Origin: Escherichia phage Ptacy1496
Strand: one strand, 5' to 3'
Sequence record: PQ863253.1
Length of the DNA: 64,000 nt
Below are positions 52,028 through 56,676 of the stretch, in pieces. Under the pieces are notes generated by a model. It was given only the letters and a program-made list of their open reading frames with translations, did no database searches and had not been told where the DNA came from. Position numbers and translations under genes: made by a program. The number at the start of each line of letters is the position of its first letter. The stretch's first letter is position 1.

Positions 52028-53014
52028 TTATTTCAGAAGAGTAACCTCAGCGATTTCTTGCCAACCGTTTTTGTCGGTCATAATAAAGTCAGCAAGATAA
52101 AGTGCAGTACGCAGTGAAACATTGCGTAAACGATTAACATTGACTTTCATCCATGATAATGCTTTATAAGTTTCTTCATCAGAAAGACCGCGCTTTTGCA
52201 TCATGTCGGTTGAAAGAATAACATCTTCAACCCTGACCATAATTTCTTCATTAGTGTGAACACCCAAATCTAAATAAACTGAGCGGGACACTAATGCTTG
52301 TAAATGTGGAGCAAGTTTAGTACCACGGTCTAATTCGCGGTCAATGTCAACGTTTGTGATAAAAACAATCGTTCCTTTAAATTCAAACTCACGCTCAATG
52401 CCTTTTTCTTCTAAGTAAGAAGATGCAGTGCTCCAGCAGACTTTACGGGTCTCTCCAGTGTCCAGAGCAGCTTTCAGAAGATTAAGAATGTCCATATCAG
52501 AGAAAACATCCACATCATCAATCAAAAGGACAGAATTCTCTTCACGATTATTCCAAAGTTGTTCATAAAGACCGATACCGGAGATTTTACCGTTAATGCT
52601 TTTATATTCAATGTATCCATTATCATTTGCTTTATTCAAAGCTTTATCTAAAGAATACGTTTTACCAATACCCGCCGCACCAGAGATAATTAATGAACGA
52701 ATGTTTCCGTTAATAATACCATTCGTCATCATTCCCATAACATTAAATCTTTTATTAATGCGGGTTTTCATATCTTCATATGATTCTTTAACTTCTTCAA
52801 CTTTTACACCATCATATGAAATGTCTGATTTGTAAACCCAAACACCACGACGCTTACCGTCAATTTCAACAAAAACTTTACCATCTCCTTGTGCATCTAC
52901 CGGAGCATTATCTGGGAACCATTCACCTAAGAGCTCAAAAGTTCCAGAGATTTCTTTACCGAAGTAGATACCCTTATTGATAGTTACAGTTTTCATTTTA
53001 TTCTCCAATCTCAC
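52028..53014 (-). CDS. P-loop ATPase (AAA-like) with N-terminal extra domain
   Basis: 328 aa; Walker A GAAGIGKT, Walker B LLIDDVD. Confidence 0.6.
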   Translation of the reverse strand: MRLENKMKTVTINKGIYFGKEISGTFELLGEWFPDNAPVDAQGDGKVFVEIDGKRRGVWVYKSDISYDGVKVEEVKESYEDMKTRINKRFNVMGMMTNGIINGNIRSLIISGAAGIGKTYSLDKALNKANDNGYIEYKSINGKISGIGLYEQLWNNREENSVLLIDDVDVFSDMDILNLLKAALDTGETRKVCWSTASSYLEEKGIEREFEFKGTIVFITNVDIDRELDRGTKLAPHLQALVSRSVYLDLGVHTNEEIMVRVEDVILSTDMMQKRGLSDEETYKALSWMKVNVNRLRNVSLRTALYLADFIMTDKNGWQEIAEVTLLK

Positions 53015-53065: not shown

Positions 53066-53329
53066 TTATTTTAACGTTCGCCAAATTTTTACTGCTTCAC
53101 GGCGAGATACTTCTACAGCTCCAAGTTCTACAGCTTTTTGGCGTCGGCGAGCGTGTAAGTCATAATGTTTAATGCGTTTATCTTGAAACCAAGAACGTTT
53201 CATTCCTATTGCTTCTGCCATTTCATGAAGCTCTTCAATATCTCCATCAGTGAACATATGACAATTTTTAGTTGGATGACCGCGAAGTTTCCATCCATGA
53301 TTCATTAAAACATCTACGTAAACTGTCAT
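53066..53329 (-). CDS. DUF4031-like small protein
   Basis: 87 aa; YVD...ELHEMAEAIGMKRSWFQ...HYDL pattern resembles recalled DUF4031 consensus. Confidence 0.5.
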   Translation of the reverse strand: MTVYVDVLMNHGWKLRGHPTKNCHMFTDGDIEELHEMAEAIGMKRSWFQDKRIKHYDLHARRRQKAVELGAVEVSRREAVKIWRTLK

Positions 53330-53475
53330 TGATTCTTCTCCAAATAAGTTTCGATAATTTTCTGAGCGAGATAAACTGCATTATCTTCAGTTGCATCTTC
53401 TAAGAAACTTTCAAAACACTCTGAAATTTCTTCTGTGTCAATCAACTTTTTTACTTCAATTGGTGTAATTTTCAT
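53326..53475 (-). CDS. small acidic protein
   Basis: ORF track 53326..53595; start moved to ATG downstream of early promoter; 49 aa. Confidence 0.35.
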   Translation of the reverse strand: MKITPIEVKKLIDTEEISECFESFLEDATEDNAVYLAQKIIETYLEKNQ

Positions 53476-53512
53476 TTTGTTTTTCCGTTTAAGTGTTTGT
53501 TTTGATAGTTGT

Positions 53513-53542
53513 ATAGTACCATAAAGCTTTATGCTTGTAAAC
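53513..53542 (-). promoter_or_regulatory. phage early promoter (TACTAT -10)
   Basis: plus strand ATAGTA-18nt-GTAAAC. Confidence 0.6.
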
Positions 53543-53571
53543 AATTTTGTGAAAAATTTTTGAAATAAAAA

Positions 53572-53589
53572 GGGAGCCCGAAGGCTCCC
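53572..53589 (-). terminator. intrinsic terminator GGGAGCC-uucg-GGCUCCC plus U-rich tail
   Basis: 7-bp GC stem immediately after nucleotidyltransferase gene stop. Confidence 0.75.
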
Positions 53590-53591
53590 TA

Positions 53592-54605
53592 TCATTTATA
53601 ATAACTTCGGTGGTTTTCAAGATAAACCCTCTCAAGGAAGTCATCCCAAAAACCCATGTCTACTTTTTGCTGCATACCGTTCTTAGAAGCTTCAGTAGAT
53701 GCTGCTTCTACTTGATCGACCACATCTTCCAAAAACTCTTGAACCGTTTTAAATGGATGTTTACCCAACTTCACGTCGAGAATAAATGGAGCATCTTGGA
53801 GTGGATAAACCAAGTCACCAGTTTTGTAAATTTCCAATAGTTGGAGTCCACCACGGCAAGCATGACTCAGAGCTTTCCAGTCAATACCTTCATTGGCTTC
53901 GGCCTTACGAGCACGTTCACCGTATTCAGCATCTAATTTGTTCAGTGACTGCTTAAGCTCAATAAGAGAAAGCGTTGTCTGATATTTACGACCCAACACT
54001 GTGTAGAACGTCTGTGGGCCTGTTTTCTCATGATTATGGAACACCCATTCACAGAATTCGTTTTCTGGAAGACGATGCTTAATATCTTCAACTTTAGTAC
54101 GACGCTGCTTAATAGAACCATCTTCTTGGTAATCAACCCATTGCTCAGGGATTTGATTAACTACTTTCAATACATCACGTAATGCAGCCAAACGAGAACC
54201 CTTAACGCCGTATTTAGAAGCTTGCTTACGGACATATCCTAAATAGGATTTCATGTTAGTCGTATAAAAACGAGAACGGTTGTCTTGAATAAACTTCCAC
54301 ACATCAGGCAAATCAGATTTAACCACTAACTCAGGTGGAGTGTGAAGCATATCTAACGCTACAGTTTCACCATCTGCTGCTAATTTAAAGAAATATTTAA
54401 GACTGTATAGTTCATGGTCAATATCATCTTTAGTGTTTTTAGATGATGTGTTGTTAGTGTTTTTACTCATGTGCTCTTTAACATTTCCAATAAGAATATC
54501 ACGAGCAGGAGGAACAAAGATTTCTTTAAAATCTACATCAGATTCTGGGGTAGAAGTTCCATAAAGATGACTACCAAAATAGCTTTTCATTACTGTTTTC
54601 ATCAT
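53592..54605 (-). CDS. Pol-beta-superfamily nucleotidyltransferase-like protein
   Basis: 337 aa; N-terminal GS-x9-SDVD motif (FGSHLYGTSTPESDVDF) plus downstream acidic residues. Confidence 0.55.
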   Translation of the reverse strand: MMKTVMKSYFGSHLYGTSTPESDVDFKEIFVPPARDILIGNVKEHMSKNTNNTSSKNTKDDIDHELYSLKYFFKLAADGETVALDMLHTPPELVVKSDLPDVWKFIQDNRSRFYTTNMKSYLGYVRKQASKYGVKGSRLAALRDVLKVVNQIPEQWVDYQEDGSIKQRRTKVEDIKHRLPENEFCEWVFHNHEKTGPQTFYTVLGRKYQTTLSLIELKQSLNKLDAEYGERARKAEANEGIDWKALSHACRGGLQLLEIYKTGDLVYPLQDAPFILDVKLGKHPFKTVQEFLEDVVDQVEAASTEASKNGMQQKVDMGFWDDFLERVYLENHRSYYK

Positions 54606-55063
54606 TCAGCCTTATATTCAATAACAGGACATACTTTAGCTTTACGCGCTTTTAAAAATTCGACGATAATAGATTTCTTGGGTTGAATAGGAGGTAAACC
54701 TTTATACGCCCTATCAATATTTTCTACATGTAAAGCATAATCCTTTTTCCATTTATAATCTTTATATTTTTCACGCAAATGTGCAGGAATAACAAATGAA
54801 CCGATAATAAGTAAAACAACCAAAAGTGCAAGTATAAATGCCGATGGAAGAAGAGTCCATAAACTACCAAAAATAAGCCATTTCTGTATGATTTCTGCAC
54901 AGATAATAGTTAGACCTGCGAGTATAGTACATCCGAAAAAAGAAACGAAAAATGTAGGGATAACAATAGACCAAAAGTATGCACACAGTGTCTTAGGTCG
55001 TTTCCATTCGTCGTTAAACAGTTTGAATAATTTATAGTGCCAAGAGTTTTCATTAATAATCAT
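54602..55063 (-). CDS. multi-pass membrane protein
   Basis: 153 aa with 3-4 hydrophobic segments; start overlaps NTase gene. Confidence 0.5.
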   Translation of the reverse strand: MIINENSWHYKLFKLFNDEWKRPKTLCAYFWSIVIPTFFVSFFGCTILAGLTIICAEIIQKWLIFGSLWTLLPSAFILALLVVLLIIGSFVIPAHLREKYKDYKWKKDYALHVENIDRAYKGLPPIQPKKSIIVEFLKARKAKVCPVIEYKAE

Positions 55064-55065
55064 AA

Positions 55066-55587
55066 TTATCCTTTCATTGAAGGTGTAACAGTTGTTAAAT
55101 ACTTAATCATAGCTTCAGCTTCTGATTTTGATAATGAAATTTCTTCATTGTTTTGACGAATAGAAATAAAATCCGGATGACGGTCACCACCAGCTTTTAA
55201 AACACACATATAAGTATCAGTTTCATCTTCAATATCTGAAATGATTGAAGCAGTTCCACATGAATGTGGTTTTTGATAAATCAATACAGCTTTTCTTCCA
55301 CCGTTTGACTGTTCATAAACTTTTAACACATCAAACAAATCGCTTCTTTTATCAATAGCTAAGATGTTGTTTTCATCTTCAATATTAAATCCTTCGGATA
55401 CTTCATAAAGTGTCACCCATAAATCACCAATATCAATAACAGCGTTCACTTTTCCATGACTTTCAAGAGCATTACAAATTTTCTTAATTTCATCATAACT
55501 CATTTTAATAATATCATCTCCTTGAATAAGGAAGATGTCATTTTTAAATTCAACACGAATTAAACCACTTCCACTTGAAATAAACAT
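55066..55587 (-). CDS. hypothetical protein, paralogue of next ORF
   Basis: 173 aa; C-terminal SIRQ...EAEAMIKYLTTVTPSM similar to 55594..56151. Confidence 0.45.
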   Translation of the reverse strand: MFISSGSGLIRVEFKNDIFLIQGDDIIKMSYDEIKKICNALESHGKVNAVIDIGDLWVTLYEVSEGFNIEDENNILAIDKRSDLFDVLKVYEQSNGGRKAVLIYQKPHSCGTASIISDIEDETDTYMCVLKAGGDRHPDFISIRQNNEEISLSKSEAEAMIKYLTTVTPSMKG

Positions 55588-55593
55588 ATTTCC

Positions 55594-56151
55594 TCACTTT
55601 GAAATCATAGTTGGAATGACAGAATCGAGATAAGTCTTTAGCGCAATAGCTTCGTCTTTGGTAAATGTGACAATATGTGATCGAAAATCGTCGATTTGGC
55701 GAATAGTTAAGACATCTCCCTCTTCATAACATTTTGATACGTTTAAAACAGTTTCATCATTCTGATTGCAAGCGTTAGTAATAATAGCATTGCAATTTTT
55801 GAGCCATTTTAAACTATGTTTTCTTTCATTAGAATAATAAAAATATTTAATCTTATCTATAAAACTATCCCAATGGATAACTGATAAACACATTGACTCA
55901 CTTTTAATATTAAATCCTGGGCATGAAGAATAAAAATGAATTTTGTGCTCATCATTGATGCTTACTATTTTATCAGTATAAGGATATTCAATTTGGGTTA
56001 AATGAATGATTTCACTAGGCGTAAAATATAGCATATCGTCTTCTTGTGTCAAACGATACATATTATTTACTTTTTCTATAGCTAATTCACCAAAAAGCGG
56101 ACTAACTTCTAATACTAATCGTTTCATATTGATTCTCTTCGACTCACTCAC
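55594..56151 (-). CDS. hypothetical protein, paralogue of previous ORF
   Basis: 185 aa; C-terminal TIRQ...DEAIALKTYLDSVIPTM. Confidence 0.45.
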   Translation of the reverse strand: MSESKRINMKRLVLEVSPLFGELAIEKVNNMYRLTQEDDMLYFTPSEIIHLTQIEYPYTDKIVSINDEHKIHFYSSCPGFNIKSESMCLSVIHWDSFIDKIKYFYYSNERKHSLKWLKNCNAIITNACNQNDETVLNVSKCYEEGDVLTIRQIDDFRSHIVTFTKDEAIALKTYLDSVIPTMISK

Positions 56152-56286
56152 AATTACATACTCCTTTGAATAATATCAATAATGTTGTTCACCAGATTAT
56201 AAGTAAACATTGGGTAATTATATTGAATCATTACATACACAACAAACAAAACTTTCATTCTCTTCTCCTTGACAGTTGACAAGATT

Positions 56287-56316
56287 ACTATACCATAACC
56301 TTGCCAACTTGTAAAC
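56287..56316 (-). promoter_or_regulatory. phage early promoter (TATAGT -10)
   Basis: plus strand ACTATA-18nt-GTAAAC upstream of 185-aa ORF. Confidence 0.5.
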
Positions 56317-56481
56317 CGTTAAATGTTGTTTTCAATAAAATTCTGAAGCTTTGTGTGAGCATCAACCATGATTTTCATTTCTTCTTTGGCGAAAGCTGTA
56401 CCTCTTTCCCGAGAAGAACACTCATAGTCAGAAACTGCATTAGCATATTCTTCAATTAGTTTCATTAAAAACATCTGCTTT

Positions 56482-56676
56482 TCAGTTTTCATTGTTCCAC
56501 CTAATCATTTCAAGATATTGAACTAACTTAGCTTTAGATTTATCCAAATCCTTTTTAGCTGCTTCTATACCATCGTATGAATATCCTTCACAATGCTCAA
56601 CTGCTAATTGATATGAATCTATTTCAATATCACGTGCTAATTTAATGATTTTTTCAAACTGTTCGCGTGTTAGCAT
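56482..56676 (-). CDS. hypothetical protein
   Basis: 64 aa ORF. Confidence 0.4.
   Translation of the reverse strand: MLTREQFEKIIKLARDIEIDSYQLAVEHCEGYSYDGIEAAKKDLDKSKAKLVQYLEMIRWNNEN

What the first reader, a model, noticed from the sequence alone, without database searches (positions are those of the whole stretch)
53592..56316. Early operon with a Pol-beta-type nucleotidyltransferase, a multi-pass membrane protein and two paralogues
One early promoter (56287..56316) and one strong terminator (53572..53589) bracket four co-oriented genes: two paralogous ~175-aa proteins, a 153-aa protein with 3-4 hydrophobic helices, and a 337-aa protein with an N-terminal GS-x9-SDVD nucleotidyltransferase motif. 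The NTase gene looks more GC-rich than neighbouring small ORFs. A nucleotidyltransferase paired with a membrane protein is the logic of nucleotide-signalling systems (signal maker plus membrane effector); on a lytic phage this could be counter-defence, superinfection exclusion or nucleotide/tRNA modification. I cannot tell from sequence whether these are already-named T4 nrdC.x homologues; even so they are functionally uncharacterised.
Basis: partly seen in the sequence, partly recalled or inferred. Interest (0 to 1): 0.7.

Follow-up and report, generated by a model that had tools for sequence, protein, structure and literature searches.

The report
T4 nrdC.11 RNA-repair nucleotidyltransferase early operon
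This is the well-known nrdC.11–mobD.2 early transcription unit of a T4-like coliphage: its nucleotidyltransferase belongs to the RlaP family, whose bacterial members add one or two nucleotides to broken RNA ends during tRNA repair, and it is not functionally tied to the neighbouring membrane protein, so the finding is essentially ordinary.

Summary
A T4-type early promoter (56287-56316) and a strong terminator (53571-53590) bracket co-oriented minus-strand genes.

The window is a Tequatrovirus. The 337-aa protein is NrdC.11 (99% identical to T4's), with an intact GS…DxD…D catalytic set, a Pfam RlaP (PF10127) match and a confident Pol-beta-fold model. A 2025 preprint names T4 NrdC.11 as an RlaP member and shows that two Pseudomonas RlaPs add 1-2 NMPs to RNA 3'-OH ends.

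The two paralogues are MobD.1/y05I-family proteins. The 153-aa protein has two long hydrophobic segments, most likely 2 TM helices rather than 3-4.

The "signal maker plus membrane effector" reading is not supported:
- T4 carries the mobD homing endonuclease in place of the membrane gene and one paralogue.
- One complete T4-like genome lacks all four upstream genes but keeps the NTase.
- 35 of 78 NTase loci have no membrane homologue nearby.
- No defence or CD-NTase profile matches.

The tightly linked pair is instead a y05I C-domain protein plus the membrane protein.

Most likely function of the NTase: filling in nucleotides lost from nuclease-damaged tRNA before ligation by T4 Pnk/Rnl1. This is inferred, not shown. 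Novelty is low.

The parts
56287..56316 (-). T4-type early promoter (GTTTACA-N-TGGTATAGT) that starts the unit
   Evidence: the motif has 17 hits, all on the minus strand, against 0.34 expected by chance. It is conserved upstream of T4 mobD.2.
56154..56258 (-).
   Evidence: PHROG 3515, E 6.5e-22. T4 has mobD.2 at the same position. Annotated as a CDS in related phages.
55594..56127 (-). y05I-family protein B, 177 aa; orthologue of T4 MobD.1 (the ORF could start at GTG 56151)
   Evidence: Pfam T4_y05I_N 2.5e-39 and T4_y05I_C 2.2e-21. 87% identical to T4 MobD.1.
55066..55587 (-). y05I-family protein A, 173 aa; a divergent paralogue found in Tequatrovirus-like loci and absent from T4
   Evidence: Pfam T4_y05I_N 1e-34 and T4_y05I_C 1.6e-23. 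27% identical to paralogue B. Single-copy phages carry a B-like copy.
54602..55063 (-). 153-aa membrane protein with two ~30-aa hydrophobic segments and conserved N- and C-terminal His/Cys-containing motifs; absent from T4
   Evidence: Hydropathy. Family alignment. PHROG 944 'membrane protein', 7.7e-50. Found only in T4-like phages. No Pfam family.
53592..54605 (-). NrdC.11, an RlaP-family (PF10127) Pol-beta nucleotidyltransferase of 337 aa (336 aa from the second ATG)
53571..53590 (-). Intrinsic terminator that ends the unit (8-bp GC-rich stem, UUCG loop, U-tract)
   Evidence: Fold energy -18.4 kcal/mol, z = -4.7. Annotated as a terminator in phage D5505. A new early promoter follows at 53513-53542.

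Best explanation
The region is one early transcription unit of a T4-like phage, mobD.2 - mobD.1 - (y05I paralogue) - (membrane protein) - nrdC.11. It lies in a plastic, non-essential part of the genome, and it bundles two separable things.

(1) NrdC.11 is an RlaP-family template-independent nucleotidyltransferase. Most likely it adds one or two NMPs to the 3'-OH of RNA, principally tRNA halves that host anticodon nucleases have cut and trimmed (RloC-type wobble excision). T4 Pnk and Rnl1 could then reseal a full-length, functional tRNA. That would make it a counter-defence add-on to the classical T4 tRNA repair pathway.

(2) A y05I-domain protein plus a small two-pass membrane protein form a separate accessory module. 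Its function is unknown, and it is often lost or replaced, in T4 by the mobD homing endonuclease.

Shown here: the gene identities, the transcription signals, the catalytic residues, the fold, the family membership by profile, and the lack of co-inheritance.

Inferred: the RNA substrate and the repair role of the phage enzyme. These are extrapolated from Pseudomonas RlaP biochemistry and from genomic context in bacteria.
For: Identity: the window matches 674 T4-like phage records. The NTase is 99% identical to T2 and T4 NrdC.11.

Family:
- The PF10127 RlaP match is above its gathering cutoff for the window protein and for all 78 diverse relatives tested.
- G11, S12, D23 and D25 are invariant and D85 is nearly so. 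K244, H248, R251 and K279 are also invariant.
- The AF2 model has pLDDT 94.3, with an N-terminal Pol-beta core and a C-terminal helical bundle.

Literature:
- PMC12776372 places T4 NrdC.11 in the RlaP similarity network. It shows that two Pseudomonas RlaPs add 1-2 NMP to RNA 3'-OH, act on neither DNA nor protein, and improve aminoacylation of a repaired tRNA that lacks one nucleotide.
- PMC7824862 predicts the same role for phage RlaPs.
- PMC2610378 shows that RloC excises the wobble nucleotide and argues this lesion could defy reversal by T4 repair.

Independent context, from 69 bacterial loci encoding full-length relatives of 32-41% identity:
- 12-13 have a canonical short RlaP immediately downstream.
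- 2-3 have Pnkp, 2 have RtcA and 3 have RtcB within three genes.

Chemical compatibility (my inference, building on the preprint's point about 5'-phosphate ligases): the RlaP product ends in a 3'-OH, which is what the 5'-phosphate ligase T4 Rnl1 needs.

Dispensability fits an accessory counter-defence role: nrdC.11-mobD.3 can be deleted from T4 (PMC9825161).

Separability of the membrane and y05I genes.
Against: - No activity has been measured for the phage protein.
- The Pfam match covers only the N-terminal half of the RlaP model (profile positions 23-142 of 249).
- The phage clade is about 80 residues longer than canonical RlaP and carries a beta-rich insert at 155-209 of unknown role.
- The PfRlaP crystal structure was not in the PDB copy, so no direct superposition was possible.
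- In the phage the gene is not next to pnk or rnlA, which in T4 lie about 80 kb away.
- Most bacterial relatives (about 50 of 69) show no RNA-repair neighbour.
- The genus-level counts of NTase, Rnl1 and Pnk among phage records are nearly identical. Any conserved T4-like gene would show the same, so this does not discriminate.
Confidence: 0.6

Rival explanations
1. One reading: the NTase makes a nucleotide signal and the adjacent membrane protein is its effector or target, in the manner of CBASS or Hailong. The phage would use this for counter-defence or superinfection exclusion.
For: - The membrane-gene stop overlaps the NTase start, which suggests translational coupling.
- A membrane homologue lies within 6 kb upstream of the NTase in 43 of 78 phage loci.
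Against: - T4 and 46 other records replace the membrane gene with mobD.
- A complete T4-like genome keeps the NTase alone.
- 35 of 78 loci have no membrane homologue.
- In Klebsiella and Serratia phages, three unrelated genes separate the two.
- An Aeromonas phage has the membrane gene with no NTase-sized gene annotated within 4 kb on either side.
- Some phages, including T2, carry truncated or frameshifted membrane genes.
- There are no PADLOC or CD-NTase/SMODS matches.
- There is no sequence similarity to HalB even with a profile at E <= 10.
- The membrane protein has no recognisable ligand-sensing domain.
Confidence: 0.05
2. NrdC.11 nucleotidylylates a protein or small molecule, in the manner of MntA antitoxins that AMPylate HEPN RNase toxins or of aminoglycoside nucleotidyltransferases. 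It would thereby neutralise a host toxin or effector.
For: - The architecture is a Pol-beta core plus a C-terminal helical bundle.
- There is a weak sub-threshold NCBIfam hit to MntA (E 0.06).
Against: - The MntA hit is far below cutoff (13 bits against 60) and covers only the GS motif.
- The family-level profile is RlaP, not MNT.
- Pseudomonas RlaPs labelled RNA but not protein or DNA (PMC12776372).
- Bacterial relatives sit next to RlaP, Pnkp and Rtc genes rather than HEPN toxins.
Confidence: 0.1
3. NrdC.11 acts on RNA 3' ends for a purpose other than anticodon-loop repair. Examples are mending trimmed tRNA CCA ends, tailing phage or host transcripts to alter their stability, or modifying phage tRNAs.
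For: - RlaP shows little NTP or RNA specificity in vitro and also labels rRNA-sized and full-length tRNA-sized species (PMC12776372).
- The gene is expressed from an early promoter, before late translation would be at risk.
- It is conserved across Straboviridae-type phage records from many host genera (1517 records).
Against: - In vitro, RlaP prefers the 5' half of a cleaved-tRNA mimic (PMC12776372).
- The gene-neighbourhood links in bacteria are to healing-and-sealing enzymes.
- No data favour mRNA tailing.
Confidence: 0.2

Closest known systems
T4 NrdC.11 (NP_049709), within the T4 nrdC.11-mobD.2 region
   Same: 99% identical protein, with the same position between nrdC.10 and mobD.1/mobD.2. 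The early promoter upstream of mobD.2 is the same.
   Different: T4 has the HNH homing endonuclease gene mobD between nrdC.11 and mobD.1. The window has a membrane gene and a second y05I paralogue there. The window also has an orf49 + DUF4031 cassette downstream of the terminator that T4 lacks.
RlaP (PF10127), RNA-ligase-associated Pol-beta nucleotidyltransferases such as the Pseudomonas fluorescens and P. aeruginosa enzymes
   Same: Profile match above cutoff, the catalytic GS/DxD/D set, and an NTase domain plus a C-terminal helical domain. Some bacterial relatives lie in Pnkp, RtcA/B or RlaP neighbourhoods. The preprint PMC12776372 lists T4 NrdC.11 as cluster 5 of the family network.
   Different: The phage clade is about 330 aa against about 250 aa, with a beta-rich insert at 155-209. 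The Pfam alignment covers only the N-terminal half. The gene is not adjacent to an RNA ligase in the phage. No activity has been measured.
Hailong HalB (PDB 9dbh), an oligodeoxyadenylate-synthesising NTase of a defence system
   Different: Only 15% identity, and no sequence or profile similarity. No PADLOC hit. The neighbouring membrane protein is not co-inherited. The resemblance is at the level of the shared minimal Pol-beta fold.
Kanamycin nucleotidyltransferase, ANT(4')
   Different: 7-11% identity and TM-scores of only 0.3-0.37. There is no evidence for a small-molecule substrate.

Membership tests
RlaP (Pfam PF10127) | Match to the family profile above the curated gathering score | tested here: met
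   44.3 bits against a cutoff of 23, E 2.4e-11. All 78 diverse relatives match, best E 2.2e-19. The match covers only profile positions 23-142 of 249.
RlaP (Pfam PF10127) | Pol-beta catalytic set: G[GS] loop, DxD, and a third carboxylate | tested here: met
   G11, S12, D23 and D25 are invariant and D85 is at least 90% conserved across 78 sequences of 34-55% identity.
RlaP (Pfam PF10127) | N-terminal NTase domain plus C-terminal helical domain forming a cleft, as in the PfRlaP crystal structure | tested here: inconclusive
   The AF2 model (pLDDT 94.3) has an N-terminal alpha/beta core and C-terminal helices, with an extra beta insert at 155-209. PfRlaP was not found in the PDB copy, so no superposition was possible.
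RlaP (Pfam PF10127) | Gene neighbourhood with RNA ligase or RNA-repair genes | tested here: inconclusive
   Not met in the phage: T4 pseT and rnlA lie about 80 kb away. Among 69 bacterial relatives, 12-13 are adjacent to a canonical RlaP, 2-3 are near Pnkp, 2 near RtcA and 3 near RtcB.
RlaP (Pfam PF10127) | Adds 1-2 NMP to an RNA 3'-OH | not testable with these tools
   Biochemistry exists only for the Pseudomonas enzymes (PMC12776372).
CD-NTase / CBASS-like signalling pair | cGAS/DncV-type NTase domain profile | tested here: not met
   No SMODS or CD-NTase Pfam hit at E <= 0.1. No PADLOC hit.
CD-NTase / CBASS-like signalling pair | Obligate co-occurrence of the NTase with its effector gene | tested here: not met
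   The membrane gene is absent from T4, from L008 and from 35 of 78 loci. It is separated from the NTase by 1-3 genes in other genera.
Hailong (HalB NTase + HalA membrane channel) | Sequence-level homology to HalB or HalA | tested here: not met
MNT / MntA / AbiEii nucleotidyltransferases | Family profile match above cutoff | tested here: not met
   NCBIfam MntA 13.2 bits against a cutoff of 60. Pfam NTP_transf_2 13.6 bits against 21.
CCA-adding enzyme | PolyA_pol / class II CCA profile match | tested here: not met
   No such Pfam or NCBIfam match at E <= 0.1.
T4 y05I / MobD.1 family (PF24449 + PF24448) | Both N- and C-terminal domain profiles above cutoff | tested here: met
   Both paralogues match: 119.6 and 83.3 bits for A, 134.3 and 76.4 bits for B, against cutoffs of 24.9 and 27.

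The most novel reading that the evidence does not exclude
The y05I C-domain protein and the two-pass membrane protein form a conserved two-gene early module of T4-like phages. They are adjacent in 32 of 45 occurrences across several genera, whereas the NTase is not. The membrane protein carries conserved cytoplasmic His/Cys motifs. The module could have a function of its own, for example superinfection exclusion or a membrane-level counter-defence.

Separately, the swapped beta-insert alleles of NrdC.11 (39% identity inside 93-95% identical flanks) could reflect an arms race with tRNA-trimming nucleases.
Probability: 0.15. Interest if true: 0.5.

Novelty: already known. Interest (0 to 1): 0.22.

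Why it matters
It matters little as a discovery. The genes are named T4 genes or their common Tequatrovirus neighbours. The NTase was recognised as a nucleotidyltransferase in 2006 (PMC1524935). It was later assigned to the RlaP family, and it is explicitly discussed in a 2025 biochemical preprint.

The residual value is practical:
- It corrects widespread mis-annotations ('thioredoxin', 'MobD molybdopterin…') that come from T4 locus names.
- It shows that the NTase and the membrane protein are not a system.
- It points to a clean experiment: does NrdC.11 let T4-like phages repair tRNAs whose wobble base has been excised by RloC-type nucleases? That would close a question left open since 2008.

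Tried and rejected
- **First structure prediction.** A shallow alignment of 20 sequences at 78-99% identity gave a poor model (pLDDT 56.7), which I discarded. A 78-sequence alignment of diverse representatives gave pLDDT 94.3.
- **Sequence and profile searches of the PDB for the NTase.** These found nothing meaningful, so the PfRlaP structure could not be used.
- **The afdb50 fold library.** It was unavailable.
- **PADLOC scan of six proteins.** Nothing came up.
- **Possible fusion of a y05I_C domain to the membrane protein.** I tested whether the ~95-aa N-terminal extension on the membrane protein in two phages (L031, L042) is such a fusion. There is no similarity, with a score near 0 bits, so I rejected the idea.
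- **PDB searches with y05I.** Single-sequence and profile searches returned only chance-level hits.
- **Genus-level counts of NTase, Rnl1 and Pnk.** They track each other. I judged this non-discriminating, because all three are simply widespread in T4-like phages.
- **Literature searches.** Searches for mobD.1, nrdC.10 and DUF4031 found nothing functional.
Full report
**What is there**

Five tightly packed ORFs lie on the minus strand between 56316 and 53571:
- a 34-aa ORF (56154-56258);
- a 177-aa ORF (55594-56127, or 185 aa from an upstream GTG);
- a 173-aa ORF (55066-55587);
- a 153-aa hydrophobic ORF (54602-55063);
- a 337-aa ORF (53592-54605).

The last two overlap (ATGATGA), and the other gaps are 2-6 nt.

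The promoter-like site at 56315-56287 (TTTACA-17-TATAGT) belongs to a highly non-random class. The motif GTTTAC-N15-TGGTANNNT occurs 17 times in the window, always on the minus strand, against 0.34 expected. One copy is at 56287-56316 and the next downstream copy is at 53513-53542.

The hairpin at 53590-53571 has 8 bp (6 of them G-C), a UUCG loop and a U-tract. It folds at -18.4 kcal/mol with z = -4.7, and it is annotated as a terminator in a near-identical phage.

The NTase gene is 38.4% GC against a window mean of 34.2%, which puts it in the top 2.7% of equal-sized windows.

**Where it comes from**

The 3.2-kb region matches 674 phage records, nearly all Tequatrovirus. In 428 of them the match covers at least 80% of the region.

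The T4 reference has the gene order nrdC.10 - nrdC.11 - mobD - mobD.1 - mobD.2. Mapped onto it:
- The 337-aa protein is NrdC.11, 99.1% identical to T4T and 99% to the T2 cluster.
- The 177-aa protein is MobD.1, 87% identical.
- The 34-aa protein is MobD.2.
- T4 has the HNH homing endonuclease gene mobD where the window has the membrane gene and the 173-aa paralogue.

The mobD arrangement is found in 47 records, so the window shows the commoner layout. The promoter sequence is conserved between the window and T4.

**The nucleotidyltransferase**

*Family and catalytic residues.* The only Pfam match above threshold is PF10127 RlaP: 44.3 bits against a cutoff of 23, covering the N-terminal half of the model. 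PHROG 388 'nucleotidyltransferase' matches at 8e-137. An exhaustive HMMER search finds 3421 50%-identity clusters at E <= 1e-3. All 78 sampled relatives also hit RlaP. Across them G11, S12, S22, D23, D25, N57, D63, Y132, K244, H248, R251, P268 and K279 are invariant, and D85 is nearly so. This is the canonical Pol-beta catalytic set plus a conserved basic patch.

*Structure.* With that alignment AlphaFold gives pLDDT 94.3. The model has:
- an N-terminal alpha/beta core;
- helices;
- a beta-rich insert at 155-209;
- a C-terminal helical bundle.

*What the family does.* The NTase nature of nrdC.11 was noted in 2006 (COG3541, PMC1524935). A December 2025 preprint (PMC12776372) places T4 NrdC.11 in cluster 5 of the RlaP network and reports the following for two Pseudomonas RlaPs:
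- they add one or two NMPs (or dNMPs) to RNA 3'-OH ends;
- they prefer Mn2+;
- they do not act on DNA or protein;
- they favour the 5' half of a cleaved-tRNA mimic;
- they raise aminoacylation of a repaired tRNA that had lost one anticodon-loop nucleotide.

A comparative-genomics paper makes the same prediction for phage RlaPs and cites RloC (PMC7824862). RloC excises the wobble nucleotide, a lesion argued to defy reversal by T4 Pnk/Rnl1 repair (PMC2610378).

*My own context test.* I looked at 69 bacterial loci that encode full-length relatives of 32-41% identity:
- 12-13 carry a canonical short RlaP immediately downstream;
- 2-3 carry Pnkp, 2 carry RtcA and 3 carry RtcB within three genes.

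This is a minority, but it is a specific RNA-repair signal. An RlaP product ends in 3'-OH, which suits the 5'-phosphate ligase Rnl1; that last link is my inference from the preprint. nrdC.11-mobD.3 is dispensable in T4 (PMC9825161), as expected for an accessory counter-defence gene.

**Is the NTase paired with the membrane protein?**

No. In 78 viral loci encoding NTase relatives of 40-99% identity, iterative HMM searches gave the following:
- A membrane homologue lies within 6 kb upstream in 43 loci and is absent from 35.
- It abuts the NTase in only about a dozen Tequatrovirus- and Mosigvirus-like loci.
- In Klebsiella JD18 and Serratia X20, three other genes intervene.
- An Aeromonas phage has the membrane gene with no NTase-sized gene annotated within 4 kb on either side.

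Further points against a pairing:
- One complete 169.6-kb T4-like genome (L008) has a mobD.3-like ORF running straight into the NTase start. The promoter, mobD.2, both y05I genes and the membrane gene are all missing there.
- Some phages, including T2, have truncated or frameshifted membrane genes.
- In the phage collection the NTase occurs in 1517 records and the membrane protein in 862.
- No PADLOC, CD-NTase, MNT or CCA-adding model matches.

**The other genes**

The two paralogues share 27% identity and both carry the Pfam domains T4_y05I_N and T4_y05I_C. Phages with a single copy have a B-like (MobD.1-like) gene, so the 173-aa copy is the divergent duplicate. Outside Tequatrovirus- and Mosigvirus-like phages, only a 65-87-aa stand-alone protein homologous to the C-terminal domain is present.

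A y05I-family ORF ends within 60 nt upstream of the membrane gene in 32 of 45 occurrences. The conserved pair is therefore y05I_C plus the membrane protein, not the membrane protein plus the NTase. These loci are phylogenetically related and syntenic, so the count is not a set of independent events.

The membrane family is restricted to T4-like phages. It has:
- two hydrophobic segments of about 30 aa;
- a conserved N-terminal motif, NSWHYKL…P.SLC.YFW;
- a conserved C-terminal motif, KA.K.K.CP.I.F.

The flanking basic residues suggest that both ends are cytoplasmic. No function can be assigned. Pfam's label 'putative transcription factor' for y05I could not be tested.

**Verdict**

This is a correctly observed but ordinary T4-type early transcription unit. 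Its nucleotidyltransferase is a known RlaP-family member whose most likely role is 3'-end fill-in during tRNA repair (confidence about 0.6, inferred from homologues). The signalling-pair idea fails its own co-inheritance test. Novelty: already known. Interest: low.

Noticed in passing
window 55066-55587 and 54602-55063; loci L007-L078: A y05I-family ORF sits immediately upstream (within 60 nt) of the membrane gene in 32 of 45 occurrences across several T4-like genera. In most genera it is a 65-87-aa protein homologous only to the y05I C-terminal domain. This is a tighter linkage than membrane gene to NTase.
   Followed up: partly
window 54602-55063: The membrane-protein family has conserved N-terminal (NSWHYKL…P.SLC.YFW) and C-terminal (KA.K.K.CP.I.F) motifs with an invariant-looking His and two Cys. 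These flank two hydrophobic segments and might form a small metal-binding cytoplasmic unit.
   Followed up: no
window 53592-54605 (NTase residues 143-225 and 263-337): The NTase gene is a recombination mosaic. One group of phages is 93-95% identical in the flanks but only 38.6% identical in residues 143-225, which form the beta-rich insert in the model. Other phages are 99% identical in the N-terminal part but 59-71% identical in the last 75 residues.
   Followed up: partly
window 53066-53329 and 53326-53475: A 49-aa ORF plus an 87-aa DUF4031 gene lie between the terminator and the nrdC.10 homologue. T4 lacks both. In 8 of 78 related loci the two occur together, at distances from the NTase that range from 0.1 to 4 kb, like a small mobile cassette.
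   Followed up: partly
window 52028-53014: The nrdC.10 homologue (328 aa) gives sub-threshold matches to AAA and STAND-type NTPase families (nSTAND3, AAA_16). Its function is unknown.
   Followed up: no
whole window, minus strand: The T4-early-promoter motif GTTTAC-N15-TGGTANNNT occurs 17 times (0.34 expected), all on the minus strand. This gives a ready map of the early transcription units in the window.
   Followed up: partly
public records matching window 53300-56500: Many GenBank phage records name the NTase 'thioredoxin'. RefSeq names the MobD.1 homologue 'molybdopterin-guanine dinucleotide biosynthesis protein MobD'. Both appear to be name-propagation artefacts of the T4 locus labels nrdC.11 and mobD.1.
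   Followed up: partly
L008 5820-7014 (IMGVR_UViG_2974742932_000001): A complete T4-like genome carries a natural deletion that joins a mobD.3-like ORF directly to the NTase start. The early promoter, mobD.2, both y05I genes and the membrane gene are removed.
   Followed up: yes
L085-L164 (bacterial and archaeal contigs): Full-length relatives of the phage-type NTase (32-41% identity) occur in chromosomes of Desulfobacterales, Nitrospirota, Alphaproteobacteria and some archaeal MAGs. In 12-13 loci a canonical ~255-aa RlaP follows directly, forming a tandem NTase pair.
   Followed up: partly
window 56025-56052: A near-consensus sigma-70-like site (TTGACA-16-TATATT with an upstream TG, 11 of 12 matches) lies inside the 5' part of the MobD.1-homologue coding region. 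It could be an internal promoter or a chance match in AT-rich DNA.
   Followed up: no
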